From NCBI GenBank assembly GCA_052327205.1, contig CM126224.1, positions 17,112,001 to 17,176,000 of the forward strand: a stretch of 64,000 nt of DNA. The letters run 5' to 3'. The position numbers and the translations under genes are program-made. This document shows positions 14,692-60,074 of the stretch, piece by piece (positions within the stretch are counted from its first letter, which is position 1; each line of letters opens with the position of its first letter). The notes beneath the pieces were generated by a model, which was not told the DNA's origin, did not search any database, and was given only the letters and a program-made list of their open reading frames with translations. The stretch comes from Somniosus microcephalus (Eukaryota).

Positions 14692-14697
14692 AATAAA
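14692..14697 (+). terminator. Candidate distal NUP188 poly(A) signal (other AATAAA at 11507 and 12838)
   Basis: AATAAA followed by T/GT-rich sequence at the end of a repeat-poor, AT-rich UTR-like block; a degenerate LINE starts soon after. Confidence 0.4.
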
Positions 14698-14869
14698 ATG
14701 TTGTGGATAAACATGTTCATTTATTGTATCATTAGCAAAAATGTTTTGAAGATAGTGCTTTAATTTTTTTTATATATGTTGACTTTTCTCTGGTGGGAGT
14801 TCAATATTTGATTTATGATTGCTGGCTCCCTTCAGACAGCTCAGCTAATACAAGTGGAATATATTTGTG

Positions 14870-16275: not shown

Positions 16276-16290
16276 TTTATTTTTTTTATT
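16276..16290 (-). terminator. Candidate distal RAPGEF1 poly(A) signals (tandem AATAAA on - strand)
   Basis: TTTATT at 16276-16281 and 16285-16290; alternatives at 16875, 18658 and 20877. Confidence 0.4.
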
Positions 16291-27390: not shown

Positions 27391-28408
27391 TGTTCAGTCT
27401 TGTGAAGTTGGCAATGCCTACTTGTGCATTCATTCTATTTAAATCCTGTATAATGCATTATTAATTGTGTGTGTTTTTCTATATCAACCTTTCTCTTTCA
27501 TTTTGTATATTTACTTTCTTGTACTTCCTATTTTTAATCTATCTGGATGTTGTTTCTTGTGTGCTCATTATAAATTGTCTTTGTTGCATTTCTAAGGGTA
27601 CTTACACTTTGACTATTTTTAAACCTTTTCCAGTGCTGTCTTTCTGGTACATTTTTCTATTAATCCAGTTTCCATTTGTTTTGGTCAGGTGGGTGTCTGA
27701 CAGGTGCAAAAACGTGCTCAAGAGTCTTGAAGCCAAGCGACTGAGAAATCCACACAGTTCAAAGTTCTGTTTGTCTGATTATGGAGTGAGTGCACACTCC
27801 CTGTGGGGATCCATCACACTTACTTAGGCCCAAAGAGCTACGGCTGGCAAAAGCCAAGGCTCAGGGCCTCCATTTGCCCCCCTCACCTCATCAAGTTTGT
27901 AGTGGTGCTAAGGTTAACCAGCTAAGGCCACACATCTTATCAGCACAGAATACTGGTAAATTTGTCCAGTTAGAGCCACCCTACATGTTAGAGCTCTGGT
28001 TTGTGGGAGTGGGCAGAATTCCAGCCCCTCAGTTACAGGTCTATCTGCCAGGCCCCATTAATTAGCAGGCTGATTGGATTCAGCAGTGGCTTGGAGTAAG
28101 AGACACAAATTGAGGCCGTTTTCTTTAGAACAGAGATTACGGGGTGATTGGTGTTTAAAATTATGAAGGGATGGGACGTAGAAGATAGAAAAAAAACATA
28201 TCCAGTGGTTGAGAGGCCCGGAACAAGGGATCACAGATTATAAGATTAAATGCAAGCGATTCAGGACATAGCACGGGAGAAACTTTTTGTTTTTACACGG
28301 AGGGTTGCGAGGCTGTGGATTGCAGTAGCAGAGCTAGTGATTGAAGCAGAGACCATGTCAACAATTAAGAATAAATTAGATAGGTGGTTGAAGGAAAGGA
28401 GAATAAAG

Positions 28409-29526
28409 TTAAGGCACATGGGATCGGGGGCAAGGTGCTGACTTGGATAGAGAACTGGTTGGCAGACAGGAAGCAAAGAGTTGGAATAAACGGGTCTTTT
28501 TCCGAGTGGCAGGCAGTGACTAGTGGGGTACCGCAGGGATCGGTCCTAGGACCCCAGCTATTCACAATATATATTAATGATCTAGACGACAGAAATAGAT
28601 GTAATATCTCCAAGTTTGCAGACAACACAAAGCTGGGTGGGCGTGTGTGCTGTGAGGAGGATGCCGAGAAACCCCAGTATGGTTTGGACAGTTTGGATGA
28701 TTGGGCAGATGCATGGCAGATGCAGTATAATGTGGATAAATGCGAGGTTATCCACTTTGGTGGCAAAAACAGGAAGGCAGATTATCTGAACGGCAATAGA
28801 TTGGGAGAAGGGGAAGTGCAACGAGACCTGGGTGTCCTTGTGCACCAATCGCTGAAGGTAAGCATGCAGGTGCAGCAGGCGGTTAAGGCGGCAAATGGTA
28901 TGTTGGCCTTCGTAGCCAGAGGGTTCGAGTACAGGAACAAGGATGTCTTGCTGCAGTTGTACAGGGCCTTGGTGAGACCACACATTGAGTATTGTGCACA
29001 GTTCTGGTCGCCTTATCTGAGGAAGGATGTTCTTGCCATGGAGGGAGTGCAGCGAAGATTCACCAGACTGATACCTGGGATGGCAGGAATGATGTATGAG
29101 GAGAGATTGGGCTTATACTCGCTGGAGTTTAGAAGAATGAGAGGGGATCTCATTGAAACTTATAAAATACTAACAGGACTAGACAGACTAGATGCAGGAA
29201 GGCTGTTCCCGATGGTCGGGGAGTCCAGAACCAGGGGTCACAGTCTAAGGATAAGGGGTAAGCCATTTAGGACAGAGATGAGGAGGAATTTCTTCACCCA
29301 GAGAGTGGTGAACCTGTGGAATTCTCTACGACAGAAGGCAGTTGAGGCCAATTCATTAAATATATTCAAGAAGGAGTTAGATATATTTCTTGAGGCTAAA
29401 GGGATATGGGGATAAAGCAGGGACAGGGTACTGAATTTGGATGATCAGCCATGATCTCATTGAATGGCGGAGCAGGCTCGAGGGGCCGAATGGCCTACTC
29501 CTGCTCCTATCTTCTATGTTTCTATG
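28409..29526 (+). mobile_element. 5'-truncated CR1 LINE (RT C-terminal half), nested in an older CR1 3' end
   Basis: 343-aa ORF with [18 protein letters not shown] and LYRALVRPHIEYC; (TTCTATG)-type tail; older CR1 sequence on both sides. Confidence 0.93.
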
Positions 29527-32588: not shown

Positions 32589-32825
32589 CTGAAAGAGACC
32601 AACAGGAGTTAACAGATGAAAATACTTTGGCCTGTAATTTGCGGTCAGCGGCAAAGCAAAGGTGCTGAAGAGAGCTGCCCAGAGATCTCGCGATCTGGGA
32701 CAAGAAGTTTATCTTTTTCAACCTTCATTTGATTGTCACTCTGTCATGGGGATTCTCAGCGAAGAGCTGCAGCGACGTCAACAAGCTGTCTAAGCAGCCA
32801 ATCACATTGAAGAATTCTCAGACAG

Positions 32826-34740
32826 GAAACATAAGAACATAAGAAATAGGAGCAGGAGTAGGCCATTCGGCCCTTCGAACCTGCTCCGCCATTCAATGAG
32901 ATCATGGCTGATCTTCTGCCTCAACTCCATTCACCGGCCCTATCGCCATATCCCTTGATGCCTGTACTAGTCTGAAATCTATCAACTTCTGTTTTGAATA
33001 TACCCAATGACTGAGCCTCCACAGCCCTCTGGGGTAGAGAATTCCAAAGATTCACCACCCTCTGTATGAAGAAATTTCTTCTCATCTCGGTCCTGAATGG
33101 CCTACCCTTTATCCTGAGGCTGTGGTCCCTGGTTCTAGACTCCCCAGCCAAGGGAAACATTCTCCCAGCATCCACCCTATCAAGCCCTGTAATGCTTCAA
33201 TGAGACCCCCTCTCATTCTTCTGAATTCAAGAGAATACAGGCCTCGTTTACTCAATCTCTTCTCATAAGACAGTCCCGCCATCCCAGGAATCAATCTCGT
33301 GAACCTTCGTTGCACTCCCTCTATGGCAAGTATATCCTTCCTTAGGTAAGGAGGCCAAAATTGTACACAGTACTCCAGGTGTGGTCTCACCAAGGCCTTA
33401 TATAATTGGAGTAAGACTTCTTACTCAAATCCTCTTGTAATGAAGGCCAGCATGCCATTTGTCTTCCTAATGGCTTGCTGCACCTGCACATTCACTTTCA
33501 GTGACTCATGTACAAAGACACCCAGGTCCCTTTGAGCATCTGCATTCCCCAATCTTTCACCATTTAGGAAATACTCTGCCTTTCTGTTTTTTCTACCAAA
33601 GTGGATAACTTCACATTTATCCACATTATATTCCATCTGCCATGTTCTTGTCCACTCACTGAGCCTGTCGAGATCCCCTTGAAGCCTCTTGACAACTGAC
33701 ACTGCCACCTAGCTTTGTATCATCAGCAAATTTGGAAATGTTACATTTAGTCCAATCATTGATATAGATTGTGAATAGCTGGGGCCCAAGCACCGATCCT
33801 TGCGGTACCCCACTGGTCACAGCCTGCCATCCTGAAAAAGACCCGTTTATCCCTACTCTTTGTTTTCTGTCTGTTAAACAATGTTCAATCCATGCTAGTA
33901 TATTACCCCTAATTCCATGTGCCCTAATTTTGTTCACCAACCTCTTGTGTGGGACCTTTTCGAAGGCATTCTGAAAATCCAGATACACCACATCTACCGG
34001 TTCCCCTTTGTCTACTCCACTAGTTACATCCTCAAAGAACTCCAATAGGTTTGTCAAACAGGATTTACCTTTCATAAATCCATGTTGACTCTGCCCAATC
34101 TTACTATTAGTTTCTAAGTGCCCAGTTATTGCATCCTTTATAATAGATTCCAGCATTTTCCCAACTACTGATGAGGCTAACAGGTCTGTAGTTCCCCGTT
34201 TTCTCTCTCCCTCCTTTCTTAAATAGCAGGGTTACATTTGCTATCCTCCAATCTGCAGGAACCGTTCCAGAATCTATAGAATTTTGGAAGATGACAACCA
34301 ATGCGTCCACTACCCCAATGCCACCTCTTTCAAAACCCTAGGATGTAGGTCATCCGGTCCTTGGGATTTATTGACTTTTAGTCCCATTAATTTTGCTAGT
34401 ACTGTTTTTTTTTTACTAATAATAATTTCTTTAAGTTCCTGATTCTCGCCACATCCTTGGTTTTCTCGTATTTCTGGGAGGTTTTTTGTGTCTTCCTCCG
34501 TGAAGACAGAAAAAGTATTTATTTAATTTCTCTTCCATTTCCTCATTCCCCATTATAAATTCTGCCGTCTCTGACTGTAAAGGATCTACATTTACCTTCG
34601 CCAGTCTTTTCCTTTTCACATACCTATAAAGCTTTTACAATCCGTTTTTATATTTTTCGTTAGTTTGTGCTCATATCCAATTTTCCCTTTATCAATTTCT
34701 TGGTCCTCCTTTGCTGATTTCTAAAAAGATTCCAATCTTT
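32826..34740 (-). mobile_element. 5'-truncated CR1 LINE with frameshifted ORF2
   Basis: ORF pieces with [42 protein letters not shown] and FADDTKL; (ATAAGAAC) tail repeats. Confidence 0.93.
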
Positions 34741-41955: not shown

Positions 41956-42031
41956 CTTTACGATCCGTTTCAGTTGCATGCACTATGAGAATATCTACAG
42001 AGCCTCCTCGCACCGCTGGGCCATCCTCTCC
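41956..42031 (-). CDS. RAPGEF1: RAPGEF1 coding exon (not in ORF track)
   Basis: AG/GT bounded, 76 nt; GEDGPAVRGGSVDILIVHATETDRK(D). Confidence 0.94.
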
Positions 42032-44075
42032 CTAGAATACAGACGTTCAAATGAAAAACTCTCAAAATATAGAAGCAAGAAAAAAGGAACCTTAATTTAA
42101 TAAAATGCATCAATAAATATCAGAGACCAACACTGATAATATTTGATGACTGGTCAAATGATAAAAGTCCATCTCTTTCCTCAGTCCATTATACTAGTAA
42201 CTGGAAAACTGATGATCTACTTTATAGACAGAGCTCTGTATTCCCAATTTTAAAGATTTTAGATTAACTTGATCCAACTTCTCCACTTCAGTGTAAAAAA
42301 TGCCATTGGTTGAGGCAAAGGAATTTTTTTTTTTGTTTGTTTTTTTTTTTGACAGGGGCGGGGTAGCAGAAAGGTCTGAAATCTGATGGACCCAAGCAAA
42401 TTTGCAGTGCTATGGGGAGAGAGATCAGTGGGACTAATTGGATCGCACTTTCATAGTGCCGACACAGACACAATGAGCCGAATAGTCTCCTTCTGTGCTG
42501 CGAGATTCTATAATTCTAAACAGCATGCAATAAATACACTGTTGCAGTATTCAGTTTGTACCCCCAAGTAAATTAAAATCAATTAGCAACATGTAGCTGA
42601 AGAAATTAAGTAACGATTCAAATTCACTCGAGTGTGCAATTCCTGTTAGCACCTGAACATGTTGATAGTGGATTAAAGAGCAGTATGACGAGAGAAATAC
42701 AGGAATCTCCAGGATATAGACTTTAGAAATGTGCAAAAAGAAAAACACGAGCTTCCTTCTTCTGTAGCAAAATTGCTTGTATACATGTAGTTAATCCTCA
42801 GCAATGAATGTTTAGTGATTATACACATACAGACACACACATATCCAAAAATGACATTGACCATGCAAAAACAGTTAGATTCATTCTATTTCCTCTTACC
42901 TGCACAAGAAAGGATGGACCATTTAAATTTTCAATTGATGTACTCAAGTACATTGAATTACAGGAGTATGGAATCACTGCAATATGAACATCCCAAAAGC
43001 TCGCAAAGTACATTCCTAACTAATCACACATGGCAACGTCTATGGCTAGCAGAATATGATCAAACATCTCAACAGTTTGAGAAATACCGAAGGCATCAGT
43101 TACTCCACCTTGGATGCCATTTAAGTAGATGTTTCAAAAGTGAAGGGAGGGATAGAGAAGGGAAGGATCGATCACTTCCCCCTGGTCTATTGTTTTTGTG
43201 AATTCAGTATGAAACATTTGCAAACAAGGGGAGCCATTTCCTGATGGCTTCACTTGGGAGTAGGGACTGGGTTCAGGAGGGTAAGGGGGATTCTAATGTC
43301 TATGAAAATTAAAGTTAGCAGATCAAAATCCAATATTTCAGATACTGAGATACAGCAATTATATCAGAAGTTTTGCACATGTACAAAATGGTTAACACCC
43401 ACCTCGACAAGCCACAAACCCAGCAGGAGCCTGACTAGAGTAGCCCAACCAATTTGAGTCCAGAGGATTCAAACAATATTGACACAAAAGTTTACAATAT
43501 ACCAACACAGCAGATTTCTCATTTAATGGCATTCCTTGTCGCCAAGTCTTTTACTAGTGGTAACTTGAGACAAATCTGCAATTATATACACACTCTGGGA
43601 ATACTTTCAAACAGGCCATGGGATAGAAACTGGGATTCCTCGACTTTTAATGTGGAGAAGCCTATAAGCTTCCTGGTAGAGAGCCACACTTTATTTTTGT
43701 CTACTCAAAGGAATTACTACTTTATCTATTTCAGAAACAAGACAGGCTGGTGGTTACTCTCAGTGTTCGATTAATCTTTAATAAAGAGACAAAAGAATTT
43801 TCATATCCCCCTTCCAAATCATTACATCTATGTATATATATATATATATATATATAAAAGAGCTCTTCTGTCTGTCTGTCCCGATGTCTGTCTGTCCGTC
43901 CGTTCTCTATACGTTTGAAAGTTAGAGCGTACCGACGCGCGCGTCGCCTCAAAAGAAAGCTTGCGATTCCGGACCGGTCATAGGCGTATTTACGTTTCGG
44001 CCGGACAAGAATCCCGCCCGCGGTATCCCAAAAACGTTCAGCGTTCCGCTCATTAGCATCTCATTAGCGACCGTG

Positions 44076-44242
44076 TGACGTCGAGGTCCACCAATCGGAC
44101 GGCGGGTTCCTTCCTACAGTTGAGTGTCGAGTGACTCGACGATTGACCAATCCTATGCTTCGGTGACCTGACCGGTCAACCAATCGGTGCGTGTGTGGGC
44201 GGGCCTTATCCTTCTGAACCGAGGTGAGTGGCCGCCATCTTG
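44076..44242 (+). promoter_or_regulatory. Pol II promoter-like motif cluster plus splice donor inside the Helitron
   Basis: TGACGTCG 44076; CCAAT 44091, 44147, 44180; TGGGCGGGCC 44196; GAG|GTGAGT 44224; GGCCGCCATCTTG (YY1) 44230. Confidence 0.6.
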
Positions 44243-44332
44243 ATTTTTCACAATTTTTTCCCCCACACTGTGTGTTAGGGAACTAAGGTAAATATTTTAA
44301 TGATGTGTTAGGGAATTAAATAACAATTTAAT

Positions 44333-44593
44333 GGGGGGGGGGGGGGGGGGGGGGGAGCGCCTCGGGAAATCGCGGGGGGGGGGGGGAGCCTCGGGAAATC
44401 GCGGGGGGGGCCCTCGGGAAATCGGGGGGGGGGGGGGAGCCTCGGGAAATCGCGGGGGGGGGGGTGGAGCCTTGGGAAATCGCGGGGGGGGGGCCTCGGG
44501 AAATCGGGGGGGGGGAAAAGAGCCTCGGGAAATCGCGGGGGGGGCCTCGGGAAATCGGGGGGGGGGGGGGAAGAGCCTCGGGAAATCGCGGGG
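44333..44593. repeat. G-rich minisatellite, 9 units of CCTCGGGAAATCG(CG) separated by poly-G
   Basis: Units counted directly in the sequence. Confidence 0.9.
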
Positions 44594-44632
44594 CGCTCGC
44601 GCCGCCCGCACTGACCGCGCATGCGCCACCCG

Positions 44633-45182
44633 CACTGACCGCGCATGCGCCGCCCGCCCGCCGCGGCCGTCCATCAGCCGCGCGATACGCGGGGGACCTC
44701 AGCTCCGGACCTCAGGCGCTAGGCAGGGGGAGGGGCCAGAGAGAGGGACAGAGGGGAGGAAGGGAGGGAGAGGAGGGGGAGGGAGAGGGAGAGGAGGGGA
44801 AGGGAGGGGAGGGAGGGATAGGACAGGGAGAGGGAGAGGACATGAGAGGGAGAGGGGGGACACACAGGGGCAGGGAGACCAAGCGCCCCAAAATTGCCCA
44901 CTGACCGCGCATGCGCCGCCCGCCCGCCCACAGCGGCCGTCCATCAGCCGCGCCATACGCGGGGGACCTCAGCTCCGGACCTCAGGCGCTAGGCAGGGGG
45001 AGGGGCCGGAGAGAGGGACAGAGGGGAGTGGGGGAGCGGGGGTGGGGGAGGGGAGGGAGGGAGGGAGGGAGACAGGGGAGGGGAGGGAGGGGAGGGGAGG
45101 GGAGGGATAGGACAGGGAGAGGACATGACAGGGAGAGGGGGGACACACAGGGGCAGGGAGACCAAGCGCCCCAAAATTGCCC
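44633..45182. repeat. Tandem duplication of a ~270-bp unit inside the Helitron
   Basis: Units start CACTGACCGCGCATGCGCC at 44633 and 44899; both end ...AAGCGCCCCAAAATTGCC. Confidence 0.9.
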
Positions 45183-46454
45183 TCGCGCCCCAAAATTGCC
45201 CTCGCAACGCGGGGCTCCCCAGCTAGTAACTATATAAAAGGTTATTGCACTCCAAAAAGTGAAATGCTTTAGGAGGACATTTGGTACGGCACCACATGAA
45301 AGAGTTCTTTCTCCAAAATCACCCTTTGGTTTTTCAAAATATATCCTTCATGGCACTGGAAGTCTCAAACAATAGGCAAAGTAGTCATGACATTAGGTAT
45401 TAAACAGGCCCTCAATTCCTGCTGTGGCCTGCTGTGAAAGGAAATAGTGGAGGCCCAATTATTCAGGGAGCACAGTTCTTGTGGCAGGCAGACAAGGGAA
45501 GGGCGAGAAAAAGAAAACAGGTAGACTAAGGGTTTTATCTCCCTTTTTCCTTCCCATTTGATTCTTCAAATCACTTCTTTTTCCCATTCAATTATCTGCT
45601 GGTAATACTGTACTGCTCAAATTTCTTTCCAACAAAATCTGATTGAACTGTAATAAAAGCTAAAATTTCTATATTCAGCGATATAAAAAAATCTTGCATC
45701 TGCACGCACGTGCCACCTTTTCCATTATAAAGTCTTATTATGTTCACAGTTATCGAGAGACAAATGACATAGGCAATTTCTATCATAAATGCAGACATAG
45801 GAATTTATAACGGAAATATAAAAATAAGGTCAGAACGTCTGAGTTTAAAATGGGGACTGGATTAAATCTGCACCCTAGCCAGCCCTCTAACTACACTTCA
45901 CCCGACAAACACACTTGGTCTTGATTCCGTGTGCAACACCATGGAAAAGCGACTGGTATATATTTAAATTGATGAATATTGTGCTTCATTACATTTTGTT
46001 ATTGTGATTTGGTTAATGTATAATTTTCCTGAGCATGTAATAGACGATGAGAAAATTGGTAGAAAGAACTGTGGAATAAACATCATTTTTTTTTTACGCA
46101 TTGGAGTGTAAAGTTAATAGAATTCCTTACTCAACTGTGAAGGTGAGAAACTATGCCTCAGTGAAGTAACTAACTATTCCATTACTCCAACTGCTGATTC
46201 TTCAATTTATTTGAAGATTGCATATAAATGAATTAGGACAGCCCACGGTTTGAGGATGAATGGAATATGGCAGTGATAAATAGAATTGAGTGTTAAATCT
46301 TGTTCAGAAGTAACTTTTGTTGGTGCGCAATAAGAAGTTCTGATTTACAGGAACAGGGGCAATCTGGCTGCAAATAGACAGCATTGTACCACAGTACATC
46401 TGTGGTACGTAGTAAATACCTTTAACAATCAATTAATCAGTGATGCTCTTATAC

Positions 46455-47068
46455 AATTCCCCTGGAGTCTCCAGGAATTGAAGATTAATCTTCTGGATGC
46501 TGCTGCGAACAATCCAGGAGAAAAATCATAGCGACATTAAAAAAAGTATTTCCATTTTCGTTTAACAATTAGGAACATAGGAACAGGAGTAGGTCATTGA
46601 GCTCCTCGAGCCTGTTCCACCATTCAGTGAGATCATGGCTGATCTGTGACCTAACTCCATATACCCGCTTTTGGCCCATATCCTTTAATACGTTTGGTTA
46701 ACAAAAATCTATCAATCTCAGATTTAAAATTAATTGATCTAGCATCAATTGCCATTTGCGGAAGAGTGTTCCAAACTTCTACCACCCTTTGTGTGTTTCG
46801 TAATTTCACTCCTGAAAGGCCTGGCTCTCATTTTTAGACTATGCCCCCAGTCCTAGACTCCCTAACCAGTGGAAATAGTTTCTCTCTATCTACCCTTTCT
46901 GTTCCCCTCAATATCTTGAAAACTTCGATCAGATCACCCTGTAACCGTCTAACACTTTGGTTTATTAGTTATAGAAATATTGGATCTGGGAAAATCGGTT
47001 GTTTGGCCGTTGGAGGTGGGAAAACATGTGATGAAACCGCCAGGAATACATCCACCGAGTCAACAGCT
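46455..47068. mobile_element. Putative non-autonomous DNA element (hAT-like) interrupted by a CR1
   Basis: CCTGGAGTCTCCAGG palindrome and recurrent CCAGGA motifs on both sides of the CR1; termini degenerate; family call from recall only. Confidence 0.35.
46572..46946 (-). mobile_element. CR1 LINE 3' fragment
   Basis: (GGAACATA) tail; reverse complement of the 3' part of the 48458 copy. Confidence 0.85.
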
Positions 47069-48457
47069 CTACGGAACGGTGTATGAAAGTCATATGTTTT
47101 GATGATGTAAAGTGACTGTCGTATTCAGGGGAAGATTAAAAAGTGATCAAATGCATCTTGAGTTTTGGATTATTTAATCTGCATGTGTAACAGTGGCATA
47201 TATTTCTAGAGATCTGAAACTCGCGTTTTAAAGTGAAATTCAAGATGGATGTAATGATTACAAGACCCAAGAACTATGACTCCTCCCATTTCATACACGT
47301 CTATGTAAACTCACATTCGTCAAGTTTCCAAATTAATTTTAATTTTATTTTTAGTTAAAATTATCACTTCAAAATGTAAGCCTTTGTGGTTAAAATTTAA
47401 TTAAGTTTACCCCTAGTCCCATAGGAACTGATCTCTGCAGTGAACATTTCAACTAAAGCATTAAGCGTTAGAAATGCTCGACACTCCCAACAGGAGGTCA
47501 GTGCTTGTAACCCCACCAGCACATCTATCCTGCCAAAATAGCCCGTCAATGTTTCTGTATTTTGAGGCAATATCAAACTAAAAAACTATTACATTGCTAG
47601 ACAGTAGATGTAATGATTGGGAAATAATTGTGCAATTGCACTAAATAAACTAAGGTGTGTTTTACTATTATGGCAAGTTTTCTCTCAAGTTAATTGTTCA
47701 TTTCCAAAACTAACACACAAAAGGTAGGTTTCCATCACAAGAAATTTTAACTAAGATGGTGAAACAGCCTGGACTAAGGACAGCTGCTTTTATACTGGTC
47801 TTTGGCTCCTGGCTCCCACAGTACGTAGCTGGTGGCCACATTAAAATAAACTTCTTGGGATTTTTAAGACCAGTGGCCAAGGCCATTTTTCACTGGATCT
47901 TCCTGACTACTGCCAGTCCTCACGAGGCCAGTAAATGCACCACCATGGCAGCTGTAGGGCACATATGGTGATATCACATGGCGCCATTGTGCACACAAAC
48001 CATTATTCTCATTGTGGCAACGGCATAATATACTCCACACAAAGACAATGGCCAGAATGGTGGGCCCATACGGTTAAACCAGTTTACGGGGCGAACTGCT
48101 GTACTTCCGGTGGCTGCACGCCATTATGTAATCAGTCTGACACTCCAGGATGGAGATGGCATTGTAGACACAAGAGTTGAGTCTGCAAATCTGTCTGTTT
48201 TAAGACTACCACAGAGTTAAGTATACACAGGGAGCTAGTCCTGCACATTTGCACTCTTGGTCTCTACATTACAGCCTACAGAAACAAAGTACCGATGCAA
48301 AGTGTAAAAAAAGCACAGTACTCTTCCAAAACAGGAACAAAAAACCCATCAAGGATAAATGCATCTTGTGCATTTAGTCAGTGACATTCCAAAATTGACT
48401 GGAGAGAACAGGTACTTACCCTAGTCTGCTCTTGTATAAAACATCTCTGGATATTAT

Positions 48458-49449
48458 ATGCAGGGATCTGTGTTGGGGCCTCAACTATTTACAGTATTTA
48501 TTAACAGCTTAAATGATGGCATAGAAAGTCACACATCCAAATTTGACGATGGCACGAAGATAGGCGGCATTGTAGATGAAAGCATAAAATTACAAAGGGT
48601 TATCGACAGATTAAGTGAATGGGCAAAACTATGTCAAATGGATTTCAATGTAGGCAAATGAGAGGTCATCCACTTTGGACCTAAAAAGGATAGAATAGGG
48701 TACTTCCTAAATGGTGAAAAGTTAAAAACAGTGGAGGTCCAAAAAGACTTGGGGGTTCAGGTACATAGATCATTAAAATGTCATGAACAGGTATAGAAAA
48801 TAATTTTAAAAAGCTAATAGAATGCTGGCCTTTATATCTAGAGGACAAGAATACAAGGGGGTAGAAGTTATGCTGCAGCTATACAAAACCCTGGTTAGAC
48901 CACACCTGGAGTACTGTGAGCAGTTCTGGGCACCACACCTTAGGAAGGATATATTGGCCTTGGAGGGAGTGCAGCGTAGGTTTACCAGAATGATACCCGG
49001 ACTTCAAGGGTTAAATCACAAGGAGAGATTTCACAAATTAGGGTTGTATTCCCTAGAATTTAGACGGTTGAGGGGTGATCTGATCGAAGTTTACAAGATA
49101 CTAAGGGGAACAGATAGGGTAGATAGAGAGAAAGTATTTCGGCTGGTTGGGATTCTAGGACTAGGGGTCATAGTACAAAAATTAGAGCCAGACCTTTCAG
49201 GAGTCAAATTAGGAAACACTTCTACACACAAAGGGTGGTAGAAGTTTGGAACTCTTTTCAGCAAACGGCAATTGACGCTAGATCAATTGTTAATTTAAAA
49301 TCGGAGATTGATAGCTTTTTGTTACCTAAAGGTATTAAGGGATATGGGCCGAAGGCGGGTATATGGAGTTAGGTCGCAGATCAGCCATGATCTCATTGAA
49401 TGGTGGAACAGGCTCGAGGGGCTCAATGACCTACTCCTGTTCCTATGTT
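48458..49449 (+). mobile_element. 5'-truncated CR1 LINE
   Basis: [23 protein letters not shown] and RRLRGDLIEVYKIL; stops and frameshifts. Confidence 0.9.
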
Positions 49450-50152
49450 CAGCTGCTGGGCACCAGTTATTCACCATCACAGGTTTTTTTCTTCATTTTA
49501 AGTACAAGGGCAACAAATCGGTAGAACATGTGGGTAACATCAGAGCGAGTCAGAATTGATATCCTCCCAACATTCAGTATTTGGAAAATCACTTAAAAAA
49601 AATATAAGCAATGAACTTCATTCTACCACTAAAACTGCAATCATCAAAACGTTCTCCAGATATTGTTTGCTTACTGCAATCACTACTACCTCCAGCAGGT
49701 TTTCTTTGGGGCTGCCCTCTTGAACCTGTCATTTTCTTCCTGCTCCACAATGTCATCCTACATTTTATTTATAAGACAGTTAAATTGAGCAGTTTCAATG
49801 TCAAACTGCAATGGGTTTATAAAGGTCAACAAACCCCAGAGACTGAATTACTTCCTTTAACTCACTGGCAGGTATAGGCTATTGTTTACAATACTGAATA
49901 AAAATCAAGTTCATTTTTGACTGCTTTCATCATTGTGCAAGAGAGGTAGCATACAAGTGTAATTAAAAAAACTGACAGTGATCTGGAAGGTTTATAGTAT
50001 ACACAGCGGGTGCTATAGTATATTACAGATTTGTTATGAAATTGATACAAAATATTTGTAGCATGATAAAACTTGAAATCAGCCCTGAGCAGTCACAACA
50101 TTCAAAACAAACAAAGAACAAGATGAAGTCGCTGAGTGTGGAAGAGTAAATA

Positions 50153-50485
50153 CAGGAAACTTTGTGCTATCCGGAGGTGAGCTATCCGGCAATCTGGAGC
50201 CACCGGCAAAAATCAGCAGCCGTTTTTTATTCTTTTTGTTTGTTTTTTTTGCTTTGTTTGAACAGTCAAGCTGTGCAAGGTCTGTAGCTATAGCAACAGC
50301 TTCAGCTACAGAGCTTTAGGGCCACACCCGAGTGTTTAGAAGCTGTTGCTAAGCAACAGTGTTTGTTGTCAAATACGGAGATAAGAATCTCCGTATCTCG
50401 CAACATTAACTCTGGAGAGTACGGAAGTTTTGAGGCAACGGCAGCAGCTCGGTCCCGTGGGTGCCGGATAGCACAAAGTTTCCTG
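50153..50485. mobile_element. Tc1/mariner (Tigger/pogo-like) MITE, copy 2
   Basis: Perfect 22-bp TIR CAGGAAACTTTGTGCTATCCGG, with TA on both sides. Confidence 0.85.
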
Positions 50486-50639
50486 TATTATGAAAATCCC
50501 ACATTCAGCATAGTCAACCACTCCATCAACTGTCTCCTGTAGAGTTGACCTGCCACTCATATCTGGCACAAAGTATCCATCACATCTCCAACAATGGCTC
50601 GAATCCCTGATTCACTACCAAAGTATCCCATCCTTGAAT

Positions 50640-51520
50640 CCCCCCTGTTCATTCTGGCCCTCAGACATTATCTGTAGGCATGGGGGTCAGTTTCCATGCA
50701 TAAACTGATGATGCACGCTGGATTCAGTGACCACCTCTTATCACAAGGCTTCTCTGACATTAAGTCGTGGATAAGCCAGAATTTTCTCCAATTGAATATG
50801 GTGAAAACTGAAGCCATCGTATCTTTCCTCCCCACCAAAACTTCTACTCCCTTGTCAATTCCGTCCCCTTCCTCAGCTGCCCAGCCAGGCTGAACCAGGT
50901 GGTACAGTGTGTCCTGTTTGACCCTGATTTGGGTTCAAAACCAATACCTTATCCATCAAGATTGCTTAATTCCACCTGTGTGTGATTACTCCTCAGCCCC
51001 TCCCCCAAGCTCACCCCATTCTCACAGAAACGCTTATCCATGCTTTTGTTAAGTCAAGTCTTGACTTTTCCAATGACCTTATGCGTTCCATCCTACATGA
51101 ACTCCAACATGCGCAAAACTGTCACCAACATACAGCCCTGCACCAAGTCCCACTCACCCATCACCACTGCCCTGGACGAACCTCCATTGACTGCCTGGGC
51201 CCCACTGAATTTAAAAACCTCGCTCCCATTAAAAATAATTCTTGACACACACTACCACCAGCACTGCATCCTAGCCTGCACCCCTCAGTCCTCTGATACT
51301 GGCCTCCTGTGTATCCATTTTTATTCATTCCTCTATCTGCAGCAAACCCTTCAGCTATCTCCAGCCTACTTTCTGAACCACCTTAATTTATTACTTCTCT
51401 CCCACCTTTAAAGCTTTTTGACCATGCTTTTGGTCATCTCTTACCACTATGCAGAAAACACTCTCCATTGCGTGAAGCACTTTTGGGCAGTTGTGCGAAA
51501 GGCACTACACAACTTGTTGC
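50640..51520 (+). mobile_element. Degenerate L2 LINE 3' fragment
   Basis: SDIKSWISQNFLQLNMVKTE and ETLIHAFVKSSLDFSN L2-like motifs. Confidence 0.7.
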
Positions 51521-51540
51521 CGATAGCTTCTTGCAAGGGT

Positions 51541-51930
51541 TTATTATTTTTTATTCGTTCATAAGATGTGGGCGTCGCTGGCAAGGCCAGCATTTATTGC
51601 CCACCCCTAGTTGCCCTCAAGAAGGTGGTGGTGAGCCGCCTTCTTGAACTGCTGCAGTCCATGTGGTGAAGGTGCTCCAACAGTGCTGTTAGGGAGGGAG
51701 TTTCAGGATTTTGACCCAGCGACGAAGGAACGGCGATATACTTCCAAGTCAGGATGATGTGTGACTTGGAGGTGGTGGTGTTCCCATGCGCCTGCTGCCC
51801 TTGTCCTTCTAGGTGGTAGAGGTCGCGGGTTTGGGAGGTGCTGCCGAAGAAGTCTTGGTGAGTTGCTGCAGTGCATCTTGTAGATGGTACACACTGCAGC
51901 CACGGTGCGCCGGTGGTGGAGGGAGTGAAT
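51541..51930 (-). mobile_element. LINE 3' end (same family as 26873)
   Basis: IHSLHHRRTVAAVCTIYKMHCSNSPRLLRQHLPNP. Confidence 0.8.
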
Positions 51931-52660
51931 GTACATTACAAAAGATTAAAATTTTAATAGGGAACAGAAGGCATCCACAAGCAGGAACTGAAAAATTAAA
52001 AAGGAAAGAGGTGGTAGGAGGCTACCTGATCTGGAAAGATACTGCTATCCTACTAAATTGGGAATGTGCTAAAATGAATAAAAGATAAGAGTGGCAGTCT
52101 CTTGGATGTCCAAAGAAAGAAATTTATTGCACAGGAGCATCGATCATTTAAAAAAGAGGGCTGGGAAGATGATTCAATTGTTGGGTACAATGAGTACTAG
52201 ATACATAAAAATCAGGACGTGAATGCACATTGTACTTGTGCAATAATGCATGGACAATAAAAGGGATCTAAAATTGTTGATTTGCTAGTTTCAGCCTAGC
52301 ACAAAAAGCTACAATTACCTGGAGGTCAATGTGATCACTGCCTACATATCTGGACAACTTGATAGGATAGGGGGTGGGTGGATAGGAATAGGGAGAAGAA
52401 ACTACGACTAACTACAAAAAGCTTCCGTGTGTACCAATTGAATGGAGTGTATTTTTGGGGGGGGTGGAGTGGGAAGAGAGAAAGATTTCAATGAAGTTGG
52501 TAAGAAAGTATAAGTAGTTAAAATGGAAGATCAATTGGTGAGGAAGAATGGAGGAGCAGAAACAACCAAAGATTAAAATTAATGCGACTAACTAACAAAT
52601 GTCCTATTTTCTTTTGACATCCTTTACTTTAAACAATATCTCCTAGTCCTCAAATCCTGT

Positions 52661-52755
52661 TCTGACAAAAGCTCATTGACCTGAAACGTTAACTGTTTCT
52701 CTCTCCACAGATGCTGCCTGACCTGCTGAGTATTTACAGCATTTTCTGTTTTTTA
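52661..52755 (+). mobile_element. Short Penelope-terminal-repeat-like insertion with 13-bp target-site duplication
   Basis: CCTCAAATCCTGT at 52648-52660 and 52756-52768; internal CTGACAA...GAAACGTTAAC. Confidence 0.65.
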
Positions 52756-55372
52756 CCTCAAATCCTGTGCCCTGCAGAAGAACTTTCTTGGGTCCAAGTT
52801 CTCCATACCCTTGAAATTAAAATTATGGAAGGAAGCTCAAGATGCATTCAAAGTGACTTGTATGTAATCAATCTTTACGGCTCATGGTACATAATGTGAG
52901 GGAAGAGTATTTGGAAAAGTTTAAAATTACTAATTTTTCTGGCATTTTTGTTGGCAACGCTTACCTGTATGAAGTACTGCTAGAATCGGATTCAGTCAAG
53001 TACCCAAGAATGGATGAGCATTTATGAATATGGTGTATCTGGAAACAATTGGCATGAAATCCCAGGGAGAGTGATGATTTATAATAGAACGTGGGTTAAA
53101 ATGTGGGAACCAGCAAAGGGAGGTATCTGACAGGCTAACCCGTCAAATTCCACGTGAAAGACTGAACTGGTCTTTTTGCCTCTCATTCCCCCTTGTGAAC
53201 AGTATATTATTTGAGGACCAAAAATGCACAGTCCCTGCCCCATGTCTGGAAAAAATAAAATGAAGTCAGTTCATACTTAATTAGTCTATTTAAATACAGT
53301 AAAAGTTAAATGACCAAAGGTAGCATCTCCAACCACATCAGCGGTAAATAATCAAATGCTGCATATTTCAATAGAAACTTAAACTCAAACTTGACTTCTA
53401 CTTCAGGGTGATCGGTAAAACTGCAATCTGTTTTTTTGTCTTAATGTAAGGAACATTGCACCAAACTGCCAATTAACTCACATCCAAAATGATTACACGT
53501 AGATTCCAGTTCTGCCCTTGCACTGCACCCCCCACTCAAGGGGCACACAAGCTCTGAGAAGCGATGAATTGTGCGATTGTTTTTGACAGCTGCTGGCTAC
53601 CAGGGGCTTTGCCGTCACAACTCAAAAATCAATCCTTAGATAAGGAGGCTAGGCCTCCTCCTGCACAGTCAGTAATGCAATTCATGGCCCATTGGGTCCT
53701 GGCCACATCTGCATCTGTTCTGAATATTAGCTTCTGAAGCTGAGGCAACAATTGGCTGTAGCCAATTCAATTCGGTTATCGTTCTTGCAGACTCTGAGGG
53801 CTAGCCCACACTGGAGTGCTTTATTACCTTATGTTTTCTCAGAGGCAGAAGAGAGAGTGAAAGCAATAGATTTCCTGTATTTAATGGAAAACTTTACTTG
53901 CATTCTGTATATACACACAAAAGATGTGAGCAGATCCCATGATTTGCCCCAGGTGCACAACTCCAACTTTGAAAATAGATTTTAATTGATTGAATGTAGA
54001 GTACACAAATTTAATGCACATTTAAAGCCCTAACCAATTTAACCAAGTGCAGCATTTTAACCATTAGTTTCTGTGTTAAAACAAAAAAGATATAATGGAT
54101 GAATCCTGCAACCGCACATTTAAACTAATTTTGTGTATTTGTTTTGAAGTGAACTAGAGACTGATGTGAAACATCAACATTTAGCAGAATGACCACAAGA
54201 GACAAATGCTTTTGATGACATATTGGGTCCTTGATGAAAAGAGTGGCATCAAGCAGGTTTCCCCATGGAATCTCATGTATAGACGTGATAAGGCAATGAA
54301 CATCCATTTATCACAACCTCCTGTTTGCATCCTGTGAGGAAGTAATATAACCTATTCAACATCTCATGCACCACAAGTAGCCAGTTTCATGTTAAGGCCA
54401 GGATGCGAGAACTATCAAATGTTCCGGGAATGTTATGGGGCTAGTGTGCTAACTGTGACTAACGTCATGAATAGAGACATGATCCCCTCTCATATTGTTT
54501 TGTTTATGCTTCACATAAAATCTGTTTAAATAAACTTGCTCTGGCATGTGTAGAAATTTGAAAAATCTTAGTATGTACACCACACATGGTATAAATCATC
54601 TATGCAGCTCTATAACCGTTTGTCTGTGAGACGCAATATTTTGAACTCCGATTAAATTGAGAAGACTGATAGTCTGTTTCGACTTCAGTTCTCTACACAG
54701 GCATTTTCTGATCCGATTTAAATCTTCATGGGGAGGGTACAGGGCAGTGGCTCTCTCTTACTGAAAACAAAGAAAAAGAGCATAATCTTTTGTCTGCTCT
54801 TGGGCAGTTTGTAATAGACCGCTCAAAAGGCTCAAGAACAGAAACAGAAAATGCTGGAAATGCACAGACCAGTCACTATCCTTAAAGAGAAAAGACAGGT
54901 TATGATGTTTCCAATGACTGCTACTCAGCTATTCTACTGGAAGTTCATTCAGCTGTTTAATGAAACCCGGGCTCTACCCAAACTTGACTGTGATGGACAA
55001 CACTGGGCAAACTGCTCTGCTAGATTGAGACAGCAGTGCAACAGAAGCAATGGGAAAAATTGGATACTCGGTTTGTAGAATTGCTCAAAAAATAAATAAG
55101 TTTTGTTGGGGACTAGATTATTTATTTAATTGGGTTCTACTGTATTTCCATTCATCCCTATTATATTTAAATCTGATACAAGCACATATTTGTAGTGTAC
55201 TAGGCAAGGCACACACCTGCTATATATAAAATCATTGATCAAGCACAGAATGTAAATGTATCACTTCAATTTGCTTCAATGATATGGAAGCTTTGAATCA
55301 AGCACAACTCTTGCCAAGTTAGTCATGGCTCAGTAGCCTTTATGCTTCATCAGTTCTGGTCCTCAGTTCCAA

Positions 55373-55820
55373 CAACAACAACTTGTATTTATATAGCGTC
55401 TTTTAACGTAGTAAAATGTCCCAAGGCGTTGCACGGGAGTATTTTAAGACAAAGAAAATGACACCGATCCACATGAGGATAAATTAGGCCAGGTGACCAA
55501 AAGCTTGGTCAAAGAGTTAGGTTTTAAAAGGAGGAAAGAGAGGTAGCAAGGCAGAGGTGTTTAGGGAGGGAATGCCAGCGCTTAGGGCGGGAATGCCAGC
55601 GCTTAGGGCCTAGGCAACAGGAGGCACGGCCAACAAAGTTTGAGCGATTATAATCAGGGATGCTCAAGAGGGCAGAATTAGAGGAGCTCGGATATCTCGG
55701 AGTTGTGGGGCTGAAGGAGATTACAGAAATAGGATGGGGCAAGGCTATGGAGGGATTTGAAAACAAGGATGAGAATTTTGAAATCGAGGCGCTGCTCAAC
55801 CTGGGAGCCAATGTAGGTCA
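55373..55820 (-). mobile_element. L2 LINE 3' end
   Basis: RLDFKILILVFKSLHSLAPSY; tail GCTATATAAATACAAG(TTG)n. Confidence 0.85.
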
Positions 55821-56725
55821 ATATAATTCCAAGGAAGAAAGACAAGATGCTCAGGGAAGAAACCATGATTTGGTGGATTGGGGGGGACGGTTGAGAAAAC
55901 AGGAACCAGCACCCTCTATATGAAGTAATATTTTATTTGGGTGAAGATATCTCTTTTATAATTCATCATCATTGAGAACCAATATTTCAACTAACTGGGA
56001 GCATTTGGAGTCAAGTTACAGGCCACTTGCAGACAACTCTGAACAGAATCCTGTGACTTTGCATCCAAACCAGACTAGATACCAGAGGTGCCTGGCCCAT
56101 AACACTCAAACAGAAATGCCCACGGTATCTTTACCAGTTAACAGGCCTGCATGCCGATTTCTGCAGTTCTCCATAAAGCTGTGTCCGACCTGACTGCCAG
56201 CTGACTGGCTCCCTGATAAGAAGGGAGACCTGAAATAGTAGGTCTCAAGGCTAAAATAAAATGTAGGATATTTCCTACCCAGCAGAATTGTTCACAAACT
56301 TACCTTCTAAGTATTCCTCCTGTGCTGCTTTGAAGTGGAACTAGCTGCAGTTTACATTTTTTTTTAAAAAATAGGAGGGCTATAAAAATAGCCAGTTAAT
56401 GTTGACCACTCCAGGGAATGTATGACCCCTACAGCCCCAAACCACGTATCAAATCACTACACTGAAGATTGGAGAAATCATGGGATGACATTAGTTTGCA
56501 AATTTAGTGCATGTTGTCAGCATTTGCAATTTGGTTACCAGATTTGGTACAGATACTGGCAGTATCTAGATGTGAACTCTTAAAAGATTTAATATTTTGC
56601 ATTTTTGAATGTGACTTTTTTCTCATGAAGGTGAAGGGTGCCAGTGTTGGGGAATGTGTGGAAATATGTATTTCCCCACCTAGGTTATAGCACAGCATAA
56701 AGCTCTTTGGTATTGGCTCCAAAAT

Positions 56726-57829
56726 GTGCATAAGAGATTAGCGTGCAAAGTTAAAGCACACAGGATTGGGGGCAAGGTACTGACTTGGACAGAGAACTGG
56801 TTGGCAGACAGGAAGCAAAGAGTTGGAATAAACGGGTCTTTTTCCGAGTGGCAGGCAGTGACTAGTGGGGTACCGCAGGGATCGGTGCTAGGACCCCAGC
56901 TATTCACAATATATATTAATGATCTAGACGAGGGAACTAGATGTCATATCTCCAAGTTTGCAGGCGACAGAAAGCTGGGTAGGCGTGTGTGCTGTGAGGA
57001 GGATGCAGAGAAACTCCAGCATGATTTGGACAGGTTGGGTGATTGGGCTGATGCATGGCAGATGCAGTATAATATGGATAAATGCGAGGTTATCCACTTT
57101 GGTGGCAAAAACAGGAAGGCAGATTATTATCTGAATGGCAATAAATTGGGAAGAGGGGAAGTGCAACGAGAGCTGGGTGTCCTTGCGCATGCAGGTGCAG
57201 CAGGCGAGAGGATTAGAGTACAGGAGCAAGGATGTCTTGCTGCAGTTGTACAGGGCTTTGGTGAGACTACACCTTGAGTATTGTGTGCAGTTTTGGTCGC
57301 CTTATCTGAGGAAGGATGTTCTTGCCATGGAGGGATTGCAGTGAAGATTCACCAGACTGATAGCTGGGATGGCAGGAATGATGTATGAAGAGAGATTGGG
57401 TCGATTATGCTTATATTCGCTAGAGTTTAGAAGAATGAGAGGGGATCTCATTGAAACTTATAAAATTCTAACAGGACTAGACATACTAGATGCAGGAAGG
57501 ATGTTCCCGATGGTGGGTGAGTCCAGAACCAGGCGTCACAGTCTAAGGATAAGGGGTAAGCCATTTAGGACTGGGATGAGGAGGAATTTCTTCACCCAGA
57601 GAGTGGTGAACCTGTGGAATTCTCTACCACAGAAGGCAGTTGAGGCCAATTCATTAAAAATATTCAAGAAGGAGTTAGATATATTTCTTAAGGCTAAAGG
57701 GATCAAGGGATATGGGGAGAAAGCAGGGACAGGGTACTGAATTTGGATGATCAGCCATGATCTCATTAAATGGCAGAACAGGCTCGAGGGGCCGAATGGC
57801 CTACTCCTGATCCTATCTTCTATGTTTCT
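56726..57829 (+). mobile_element. 5'-truncated CR1 LINE, sister of the 28409 copy
   Basis: Near-identical RT peptides to 28384-29415, with an internal deletion and a stop. Confidence 0.93.
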
Positions 57830-58524
57830 AGTCTTAATTTCAGATTATCCCTGCGTTGAAATAAGGTTTTCCACTTCCGCTACAAACTTATGGTTTCTTT
57901 GGGGCAAGGGTGGGGGGACACTGCCAATCTTGCTGGTAGTTTTCTATTGTGGGCTCACTTGCAAACTCATTTCTTAGAGCCAGCAGAGATTAGACTTTCA
58001 TCCCACCAGGCTGTGCTGGATATGAATCCATGCCCAAGAGGTGAAAGCTCATTGTACCACCCACTTTAGCAAAAGAAACCTATACAACCAGGCATAATTC
58101 AGAAGACGAAAATATTTGAACTGAAAGTAATTATATCCTCAAATTATCCTTCACCTTAACTTATATAAAGTCACAATCCCATATAATGGTTTCTATAGAA
58201 CCAGGACAAAATAGCCAATGCCTCAATCATATTGATGGTAAGATGCAGTTCTTTAATCAAAGCACAATACATACTGACAGGGAAGAGCGTGCGTTTTCGC
58301 CTCTGAGCAGCAGTCAGCTACTACAAGCTACAACGAATGATGGCAGAGGCAGCAACAGAAAAATGCCATAACGGAGGCTGACATTTCATTATCAGCCAAC
58401 CTGCAAATCAAACCTCTAAACACCACTTGCGAACAGAATACGAAGAGAGCAGATATATAAATGTCAGCCTAGTGCTGGTGCAGGTACAGTATGTAACTGT
58501 ACTTCATGGTAAACCACAGGTATA

Positions 58525-59322
58525 GATCTCGCTCGCCCCTCCCCTTCTCTGTAATCTCCTCCACCCCTACAACCCTCTTGAGAACTCGGCGTTGCTCCAA
58601 TTCTGGCCTCTTGTGCAACCCCCATTTCCTTTGTTCCACCATTGGTGGCCATGCTTTCAGCGGTCTAAGCTCTGGAATTCCATCCCTAAACCCCTCTACC
58701 TCTAGCTCTCCTCCTTCAAGGCGCCCCTTAAAACCTACCTCCGAGTAAGTTTTTGGTTAGCTTTTATATCTAGAGGGTTAGAATATAAAGGGGAGGAAGT
58801 TTTGCTACAGCTATATAAAGCCCTGGTTAGCCCACATCTGGAGTACTGTGTGCAGTTCTAGGCACCGCATCTTAGAAGGGAAATATTGGCCTCGGAAGTG
58901 CAGATTCAACAGAATGTTACCAGGGTTCCAAGGGTTAAATTCTGAGGAGAGATTACATGAACTAGGCTTGTATTTCCTGGAATATAGAAGGCTAAGGAGC
59001 GATTTGATTGAGGTCTTAGAATTTAGAGAAGTTAGGAAACACTTCTTCACCCAAAGGGTGATAGAAGTGCAGAACACTCCTACAAAAAGCAGTAGTTGCT
59101 AGCTCAATTAATAATTTTAAATCGTCAAGGGTATCAAGGGATATGGAGCCAAGGTGGGTAAATGGAGTTAGGGTACAGGTCAGCCATGGTCTGAATGGGC
59201 TACTCCTGTTCCTAATATCTCCTTATGCGGCTCGGAGTCAAATTTTATCTGATAATGCTCCTGCGAAGAGCATTGGGAGGTTTTACTATGGTAAAGATGC
59301 TATATAAATCCAAGTTGTTGCT
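58525..59322 (+). mobile_element. L2 3' end split by a CR1 fragment (CR1 about 58760-59213)
   Basis: L2 sequence (matches the reverse complement of 55373-55820) stops near 58760 and resumes near 59214, up to the GCTATATAAATCCAAGTTGTTG tail. Confidence 0.75.
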
Positions 59323-59761
59323 ATATATTGTAACTGCATCCCTGATCTTGAAAGTTTAACTATATATCGACTCCCAGATATAATAGCCAAGATAGAAAAT
59401 TTTGGTACAGTGTCCTTTGAACAATTCAGATGTTATGGTCTAAATAATCCCAGTGATTTCAAAAAACAAGTGTTCCACACACTGTATGCCCTACAGTGCC
59501 ACAAGAGACTTCATGCAGCTGGGAAATATTTTTGAAAATTGCTAAGTTTGTTGTTTTTACATTAACACCACATCGAGTATTAGTTTTTAATCTAGCAACA
59601 GATGATGGTGTTGCTATTGCACAGGGAGCAAGGGGCTCTTTTGCAGGTAAACATTGCTCAGCTGGTAATGCAGCACTAAAGGAATGAAGGATTAAAAGTC
59701 AGCAAATTAATCCACAGCAAGTGCATCAGTCAAACACAGTCTGTGCTAAAGGATACATTAC

Positions 59762-59870
59762 CTCCTGTTTGAGCGTTAGCCTAGCCACAATCTCTTCGTG
59801 ATCGATGAGTGACAATTCATCCGTTTCATCATTTTGATCCAGATCTGGCGAACTCGGAGCGTCTGCTCGC
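59762..59870 (-). CDS. RAPGEF1: RAPGEF1 coding exon (upstream exons lie outside the window)
   Basis: ttccctAG|G CGA...CAG GAG|GTaatg, 109 nt, phase 2/0; RADAPSSPDLDQNDETDELSLIDHEEIVARLTLKQE. Confidence 0.92.
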
Positions 59871-60074
59871 CTAGGGAAAAGACAGACAGTACAGAAATGA
59901 ACAGGTAAATTAGACACAATGAGTTCATGCAGCACAGAAATGAGTATGGAAATGGCATATTTCAAACATAAATATAATATACAAAGTGAGAAAACTGTAT
60001 CCTAAATGTCATCCAATTTACCATCTACACAATTCATAGCTTTCTGCTCAGTTTAATTCTAATGGATTTCCTCC

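What the first reader, a model, noticed from the sequence alone, without database searches (positions are those of the whole stretch)
43827..45226. Complete, apparently young non-autonomous Helitron in a RAPGEF1 intron
Seen: the 1400-bp GC-rich island starts exactly at A|TC, followed by (TA)n, TATAAAAG and (TCTG)n. It ends with a bulged hairpin GCCC-T-CGC-AAC-GCG-GGGC (45198-45215), 7 nt, then CTAG|T. There is no TSD, no TIR and no RepHel ORF. Established: 5'-TC, a 3' hairpin, CTRR and insertion between A and T are the diagnostic Helitron termini. Inference: undecayed CpGs in a CpG-depleted genome imply recent insertion or protection from methylation, so rolling-circle transposition may be recent in a probable chondrichthyan lineage, where Helitrons are poorly documented as far as I know.
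Basis: partly seen in the sequence, partly recalled or inferred. Interest (0 to 1): 0.75.

Follow-up and report, generated by a model that had tools for sequence, protein, structure and literature searches.

The report
Young non-autonomous shark Helitron family
This 1.4-kb GC-rich island in a RAPGEF1 intron of a cartilaginous fish (likely a shark) is one of over 1,500 dispersed copies of a rolling-circle transposon (Helitron) that has no enzyme of its own, was likely moved by full-length relatives in the same genome, and lands at sites that resemble its own start.

Summary
Confirmed. 43827-45226 is a non-autonomous canonical Helitron (HLE1), antisense in a 17.7-kb RAPGEF1 intron. Its 29-nt 3' end occurs exactly 1,554 times. 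All 59 sampled 3' ends are followed by T, 33 of 35 clear non-tandem starts follow A, and paralogous empty LINE sites show A|T insertion without duplication. Its first ~500 nt are 90.6% identical to the 5' end of an 8.2-kb RepHel element, including a predicted CCAAT/GC-box/splice-donor/YY1 promoter cassette conserved across subfamilies. Corrections: CpGs are not protected (transitions 6-16x faster); the family is young only relatively (window copy 0.3% non-CpG from the majority; no identical pair in 435; 5' module not seen in a relative about 3% diverged); present activity is not shown. Added: targets mimic the element's own 5' end (TATAA within 16 nt in 24 of 43 sites against about 3% of controls), which would explain a LINE hot spot and mixed tandem arrays. 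A new, well-defined member of a known kind; Helitrons are already listed for whale shark.

The parts
43827..45226 (+). Non-autonomous canonical Helitron (HLE1) copy, 1,400 bp, inserted between A43826 and T45227
43827..43862 (+). 5' terminus: TC, (TA)n run, TATAAAAG; predicted nicking/initiation end
   Evidence: sequence; shared by copies and by RepHel elements; function inferred from Helraiser (PMC4778049, PMC5876387 passages)
43863..44330 (+). 5' module shared with autonomous RepHel elements (element nt 14-504 at 90.6% to L098/L113; nt 3-419 at 85.8% to L093)
44076..44241 (+). Predicted promoter/first-exon cassette: CRE-like TGACGT 44076, CCAAT boxes 44090/44146/44179, GC box 44197, splice donor AG|GTGAGT (GT at 44224), YY1-like GCCATCTT 44234 (motif names recalled, not from a call)
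   Evidence: motif columns 0.91 conserved against 0.79 for the rest across 10 other subfamily representatives; in L098 the donor opens a ~500-nt intron-like stretch ending in AG just before the RepHel ATG; no RNA evidence
44344..44593 (+). Poly-G/GCCTCGGGAAATCGC minisatellite, length-variable between copies
   Evidence: not found in the RepHel elements fetched
44599..45205 (+). GC-rich 3' half: 24-nt tandem, a ~270-280-nt direct duplication with GGGA-rich tracts, 19-nt subterminal tandem; origin unresolved
   Evidence: 1,389 candidates for 44575-44740, 40 scored, best 95-98%
45198..45215 (+). Bulged 7-bp hairpin with 3-nt loop, predicted termination signal
   Evidence: same bulge, loop and 7-nt spacer with different paired letters in the autonomous families
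45223..45226 (+). 3' CTAG terminus
45227..45240 (+). 3' target flank TAACTATATAAAAG that resembles the element's own 5' end
42032..59761 (-). Host RAPGEF1 intron (approximate bounds from tblastn; gene on the minus strand, element antisense)

Best explanation
This is one copy of a non-autonomous canonical Helitron (HLE1) family with over 1,500 dispersed ends, which shares its 5' ~500 nt with full-length RepHel Helitrons of the same genome and was likely mobilised in trans by their transposase. Shown: termini, copy number, A|T insertion without duplication, shared 5' module, RepHel relatives with HUH, Y2 and Walker A motifs, CpG decay, and a target bias towards A|T-N(5-8)-ATAA. Inferred from Helraiser: RepHel nicks the plus strand at TC, peels it off, stops at CTAG after the hairpin, and joins the copy at A|T. 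Inferred here: RepHel reads the target strand much as it reads its own 5' end, so copies pile into one LINE site and onto the 5' ends of resident Helitrons. The burst postdates the split from a relative about 3% diverged in this intron; the copies are methylated in the germ line and decaying, and the family is probably quiet or slow today.
For: 3,321 candidates, 40 scored at 96-100%; 1,554 exact 3' ends against 0 control; 22 of 30 position-ordered 3' ends have the near-full 5' module within 1.5 kb; 59 of 59 unique 3' flanks start with T; of 50 5' ends, 33 follow A, 9 follow CTAG of a tandem neighbour, 1 C, 1 T, 6 unclear; 17 of 19 paralogous LINE copies are empty at the site where three copies sit between A and T, no duplication; PF14214: 407 candidates, 150 scored; Helitron_like_N + Rep + PIF1 and no endonuclease domain; best PDB match Helraiser 7LCC, E 1.7e-240; 3 of 29 hand-picked long-ORF loci complete from Met, 8 of 29 open from zinc finger to end, pairwise dN/dS 0.45-0.75; hairpin architecture kept with different paired letters; TATAA in 24 of 43 flanks against 18/490 and 133/5056, shuffles at most 15 in 10,000; organism C contigs run on 552 and 566 nt past 43820 with zero depth on 43934-44330.
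Against: No fetched autonomous element has the identical 3' hairpin or more than 91% identity at the 5' end, so the mobilising partner is not pinned; the closest 5' relative has a stop in its N-terminal part. The hairpin alone is weak. The GC-rich 3' half has no source among the RepHel elements fetched. 6 of 30 position-ordered 3' ends lack the 5' module within 1.5 kb and 2 have it only in part.
Confidence: 0.95

Rival explanations
1. An ordinary, methylation-protected host CpG island or regulatory element of RAPGEF1.
For: CpG o/e 0.84-1.42 and promoter-like motifs.
Against: Over 1,500 dispersed copies, CpG transitions 6-16 times other transitions, no cover of the CpG-rich part in a relative whose contig spans the flank, antisense to the gene in mid-intron.
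Confidence: 0.01
2. Another kind of dispersed repeat (SINE, MITE, Helentron/HLE2 derivative or Replitron) that only looks Helitron-like.
For: Internal minisatellites and no coding capacity; the 3' half has no autonomous source.
Against: No terminal inverted repeats or duplication, A|T not T|T insertion, no Rfam match, 5' module contiguous with RepHel ORFs lacking an endonuclease domain.
Confidence: 0.02
3. The family is still transposing now (insertion polymorphism among living individuals), as the first reader's 'young' could imply.
For: Window copy has 1 non-CpG change in 341 sites; uninterrupted RepHel ORFs exist.
Against: No identical pair among 435 comparisons of the 30 best copies (mean 5.1 differences in ~327 nt); contigs of two organism labels both run 30 and 69 nt past 43820 and stop, as expected if both carry the insertion (inferred from lengths); shark mutation rate is very low (PMC10587355).
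Confidence: 0.2
4. The head-to-tail arrays are rolling-circle concatemers rather than insertions onto a resident 5' end.
For: CTAG|TC junctions are the classic concatemer sign (PMC5876387 passage); 4 of 11 neighbour pairs differ by only 4 changes.
Against: 6 of 11 neighbour pairs differ by 10-44 changes, i.e. different subfamilies; 4 changes is no closer than random pairs (mean 5.1). Insertion at a resident A|TC gives the same junction.
Confidence: 0.35

Closest known systems
Canonical Helitrons (HLE1/Helitron1), non-autonomous derivatives (definition in PMC11417382, passages)
   Same: 5' TC, 3' hairpin + CTRR, A|T insertion, no duplication, RepHel partners without EN domain.
   Different: The 3' hairpin is a variant, not identical to the autonomous elements sampled; the nearest RepHel proteins in the protein collection are only 57-59% identical.
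Helraiser/Helibat1 of vesper bats (PMC4778049 passages and section 10; PMC5876387 passages; PDB 7LCC)
   Same: Best solved match to the RepHel (E 1.7e-240), HUH and Y-x3-Y aligned; AT-rich target preference strongest on the 3' side.
   Different: The parts read describe the target as AT-rich; here a spaced motif like the element's own 5' end is measured. Different host class and family.
HelibatN3 and other promoter-carrying bat Helitrons (PMC4778049, PMC4224331 passages)
   Same: Non-autonomous family spreading a promoter-like region, first exon and splice donor to thousands of sites.
   Different: There the cassette was captured from a host gene (NUBPL); here it is shared with the autonomous elements and sits before the RepHel ORF, its ultimate source untested, and this copy is antisense to its host gene.
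Helitrons listed for whale shark (PMC8455134, one passage) and vertebrates broadly (PMC4350176 passages)
   Same: Helitrons in chondrichthyans.
   Different: Those are superfamily presence calls; no family with termini, partner, target motif or age was seen in the papers read.

Membership tests
Helitron HLE1 (canonical) | 5' TC terminus | tested here: met
Helitron HLE1 (canonical) | 3' hairpin followed by CTRR | tested here: met
   28 of 30 CTAG; hairpin layout kept across families; weak on its own
Helitron HLE1 (canonical) | Insertion between A and T without target-site duplication | tested here: met
   59 of 59 3' flanks start with T; 33 of 35 clear non-tandem 5' flanks end in A; 17 of 19 empty paralogues
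Helitron HLE1 (canonical) | Autonomous RepHel relative sharing terminal sequence | tested here: met
   5' module 86-91% identical, 3' CCCCAGCTAG/CTCCAGCTAG ends related but hairpin not identical
Helitron HLE1 (canonical) | Rolling-circle mobilisation by RepHel (circles, plus-strand transfer) | not testable with these tools
   needs a transposition or circle-junction assay
HLE2 / Helentron | Short terminal inverted repeats, T|T insertion, often an EN domain | tested here: not met
   A|T sites; no EN domain in two RepHel proteins scanned
SINE or structured-RNA-derived repeat | RNA-derived head, target-site duplication | tested here: not met
   no Rfam match at gathering score; no duplication
Promoter-capturing Helitron (HelibatN3 type) | Cassette captured from a host gene and driving chimeric transcripts | not tested
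   cassette is shared with autonomous elements; host source and RNA not examined

The most novel reading that the evidence does not exclude
A Helitron clade with no protein relative above 59% identity invaded one shark lineage by horizontal transfer after it split from a ~3% diverged relative, acquired a vertebrate-type CCAAT/GC-box/donor/YY1 promoter cassette to express its RepHel, and scattered that working promoter to thousands of sites, with RepHel choosing targets that mimic its own 5' end so that Helitrons stack onto each other: a shark parallel to the bat Helitron invasion.
Probability: 0.25. Interest if true: 0.7.

Novelty: new member of a known kind. Interest (0 to 1): 0.4.

Why it matters
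Shark and chimaera genomes are described as LINE-dominated and poor in DNA transposons (PMC5381603, PMC6817897, PMC4350176 passages). A high-copy, relatively young Helitron burst with uninterrupted RepHel ORFs gives lineage-dating markers, a natural vertebrate Helitron system outside bats and frogs, and a large natural data set for the open question of how RepHel picks targets. Each copy carries a predicted promoter and splice donor, so sense-oriented intronic copies could make chimeric transcripts; this copy is antisense, so its effect on RAPGEF1 is probably small.

Tried and rejected
Protected CpG island: rejected. Hairpin stability as evidence by itself: not significant. Search for an autonomous element with identical ends among 29 fetched long-ORF loci (of 150 scored): none. 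Source of the GC-rich 3' half: only a weak 71% inverted low-complexity match to the polypyrimidine intron of L098; the genome search returned family copies only. Donor for horizontal transfer: two protein searches gave at most 57% and 59% identity and no chondrichthyan name among the 120 rows shown in each; repeats are usually masked before gene annotation (own knowledge), so this is weak. The right junction in other runs was not obtained, so the orthologous empty site is not read directly. Rfam: no match. Earlier findings of this scan: none. The cryo-EM paper on Helraiser (recalled) was not found and may already describe target likeness to the 5' end.

Full report
Observation. It is 64% GC with CpG o/e 0.84, against 40% and 0.33 for the rest of the window. 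The first 504 nt are 48% GC with CpG o/e 1.42; the 3' half is made of minisatellites and a ~270-280-nt duplication. Its long open frames are low-complexity and Rfam has no match. The hairpin alone is not beyond chance (z -1.44).

Host. The last coding exon finds RAPGEF1 proteins, almost all top rows from sharks, rays and chimaera at 92-98%. tblastn maps 13 exons on the minus strand; the element lies antisense in the ~17.7-kb intron between exons 59762-59872 and 41957-42031. The genome is 6.45 Gb.

A dispersed family. A 471-nt 5' probe gave 3,321 candidates, of which 40 were scored, all 96-100%. All 30 fetched loci end with the same terminus (28 CTAG, 1 CTAT, 1 TTAG), 0.9-1.8 kb downstream. The 29-nt 3' end occurs exactly 775 + 779 = 1,554 times, the reversed control 0 times. 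Of the first 30 such ends on contig C1, 22 have the near-full 5' module within 1.5 kb at 89-97%, 2 have part of it and 6 none; one of the six has an expanded minisatellite, the rest look truncated or have another 5' part.

Insertion site. All 59 unique 3' flanks start with T. Of 50 5' ends, 33 follow A, 9 follow the CTAG of a tandem neighbour, 1 C, 1 T and 6 were unclear. Seven copies have the same site of a LINE (reverse-transcriptase ORFs; CR1-type label recalled) as their 3' flank. Of 19 other copies of that LINE, 17 are empty and read CCCTTAA|TATACTTATAAAAC or a close variant, exactly the two flanks of the three filled copies whose 5' flank is the LINE, with nothing duplicated; two hold other Helitron-like sequence at the same spot. 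For the window's own site, runs of organism C (two studies; 37 changed letters over the 1,221-nt flank in X4) have contigs that follow the flank to 43820 and run on for 552 and 566 nt, with zero depth on 43934-44330; contigs of organisms A and B stop 30 and 69 nt after 43820 and the element is covered very deeply. That fits an empty site in C and a filled site in A and B, but it is inferred from lengths; the join was not read.

Autonomous relatives. PF14214 gave 407 candidates, 150 scored. I fetched 29 distinct loci with the longest open frames. Three are complete from a Met with zinc-finger, HUH, Y2 and Walker A motifs, eight are open from the zinc finger to the end, and pairwise dN/dS is 0.45-0.75; this sample is biased towards intact copies. 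Pfam shows Helitron_like_N, Rep and PIF1 and no endonuclease; the best solved match is Helraiser, E 1.7e-240. An 8,157-bp element at C5:137203036-137211192 matches element nt 14-504 at 90.6%, then continues through an intron-like stretch ending in AG just before the RepHel ATG; it has a stop in its N-terminal part. Another, with a complete 1,488-aa ORF, matches nt 3-419 at 85.8%. Their 3' ends keep the bulge, 3-nt loop and 7-nt spacer but pair CGGC/GCCG or GGC/GCC where this family pairs CGC/GCG. No fetched element has identical ends, so the actual mobiliser is not identified.

Promoter cassette. Similarity among subfamilies repeatedly ends near nt 419, just after CCAAT boxes, a GC box, AG|GTGAGT and a YY1-like motif (names recalled). 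Across 10 other representatives at 70-90%, motif columns are 0.91 conserved against 0.79 elsewhere. The simplest reading is the RepHel promoter and non-coding first exon; this is a prediction without RNA support. Bat Helitrons that spread captured promoters and donors are the known parallel (PMC4778049, PMC4224331, passages).

Age. In 430 aligned columns (3 variable columns left out), CpG transitions are 0.020 per site in the 30 best copies and 0.047 in 21 position-ordered copies, against 0.001-0.003 and 0.007 at other sites; the window copy has 1 non-CpG change in 341 and 2 CpG transitions in 80. So the CpGs are methylated and decaying; their number reflects youth. The best-hit set understates divergence and the positional set includes subfamily differences. 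No pair among 435 is identical. At 7e-10 per base per generation (PMC10587355, passages) 0.3-0.4% would be 4-6 million generations, so 'young' is relative, and present activity is not shown.

Target mimicry. After dropping 10 flanks that are another Helitron's start and collapsing the 7 LINE-site copies to one, TATAA lies within 16 nt in 24 of 43 flanks, against 18 of 490 and 133 of 5,056 control A|T sites; 10,000 composition-keeping shuffles reach at most 15; ATAA starts at position 7-9 in 24 flanks. The target thus resembles the element's own TC-(TA)n-TAAA start. This would explain the LINE hot spot and the tandems: 6 of 11 neighbour pairs differ by 10-44 changes, too many for one concatemer, and the closest differ by 4, like random pairs. 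For Helraiser the text read reports AT-rich targets, most so on the 3' side (PMC4778049 section 10); its logo figure was not seen.

What is known. HLE1 criteria are from PMC11417382 (passages; 'shark' and 'Chondrichthyes' do not occur in its main text; its 404-species supplement was not read and may hold sharks). Whale shark is reported to contain Helitrons (PMC8455134, one passage; supplement not read). Reviews describe elephant shark as poor in DNA transposons (PMC4350176, PMC5381603, PMC6817897, passages). PMC10468316 mentions Helitron only in a reference title; PMC12001565, PMC13286980 and PMC5876387 were read as passages. Five searches (listings only, 30 of 47 and 17 of 18 shown in two of them) showed no paper on a shark Helitron family; Repbase and Dfam could not be checked. 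Protein searches found no RepHel above 57-59% and no chondrichthyan name in the rows shown, which fits but does not show horizontal transfer.

Verdict. A real, complete, non-autonomous HLE1 Helitron of a relatively young, lineage-restricted burst (confidence 0.95). A new member of a known kind; interest 0.4, raised by the target motif, the conserved cassette and uninterrupted RepHel ORFs.

Noticed in passing
L117-L135 (LINE site of L008, L017, L024): One position in a young LINE is a Helitron hot spot: 7 of 59 sampled copies have it as 3' flank and 2 of 19 other LINE copies hold other Helitron-like sequence there.
   Followed up: partly
L106:2263-2520 on the minus-strand reading: A RepHel element shares only the first ~130 nt with this family and then has a different GC-rich exon-like stretch with its own GTGAGT donor, suggesting swapped or captured 5' cassettes among autonomous elements.
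   Followed up: no
L098/L113 ~6700-8600, L053-L054, L111: The 3' region of one RepHel subfamily holds tandem, degenerate duplicates of its own helicase-coding DNA, several kb long in L053.
   Followed up: no
L018 flanks against L053 and L106 introns: One copy of this family sits in a sequence that also occurs, empty, inside the intron of autonomous Helitrons.
   Followed up: no
L055-L056: Two RepHel copies lie as a large inverted pair (~5 kb, 88-92% in cross-matches).
   Followed up: no
L016, L026, L030, L003: Head-to-head and tail-to-tail clusters of Helitrons of different subfamilies around (TA)n runs.
   Followed up: partly
window 4940-5391, 28384-29524, 32807-34522, 46573-46952, 48440-49460, 56729-57830, 58760-59214: Several LINE reverse-transcriptase fragments (CR1/L2-type, label recalled) in RAPGEF1 introns and downstream; the 28.4-kb and 56.7-kb copies are 93-95% alike.
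   Followed up: no
window 12000-18000: A strongly CpG-poor (o/e 0.06-0.11), AT-rich stretch downstream of the RAPGEF1 stop codon.
   Followed up: no
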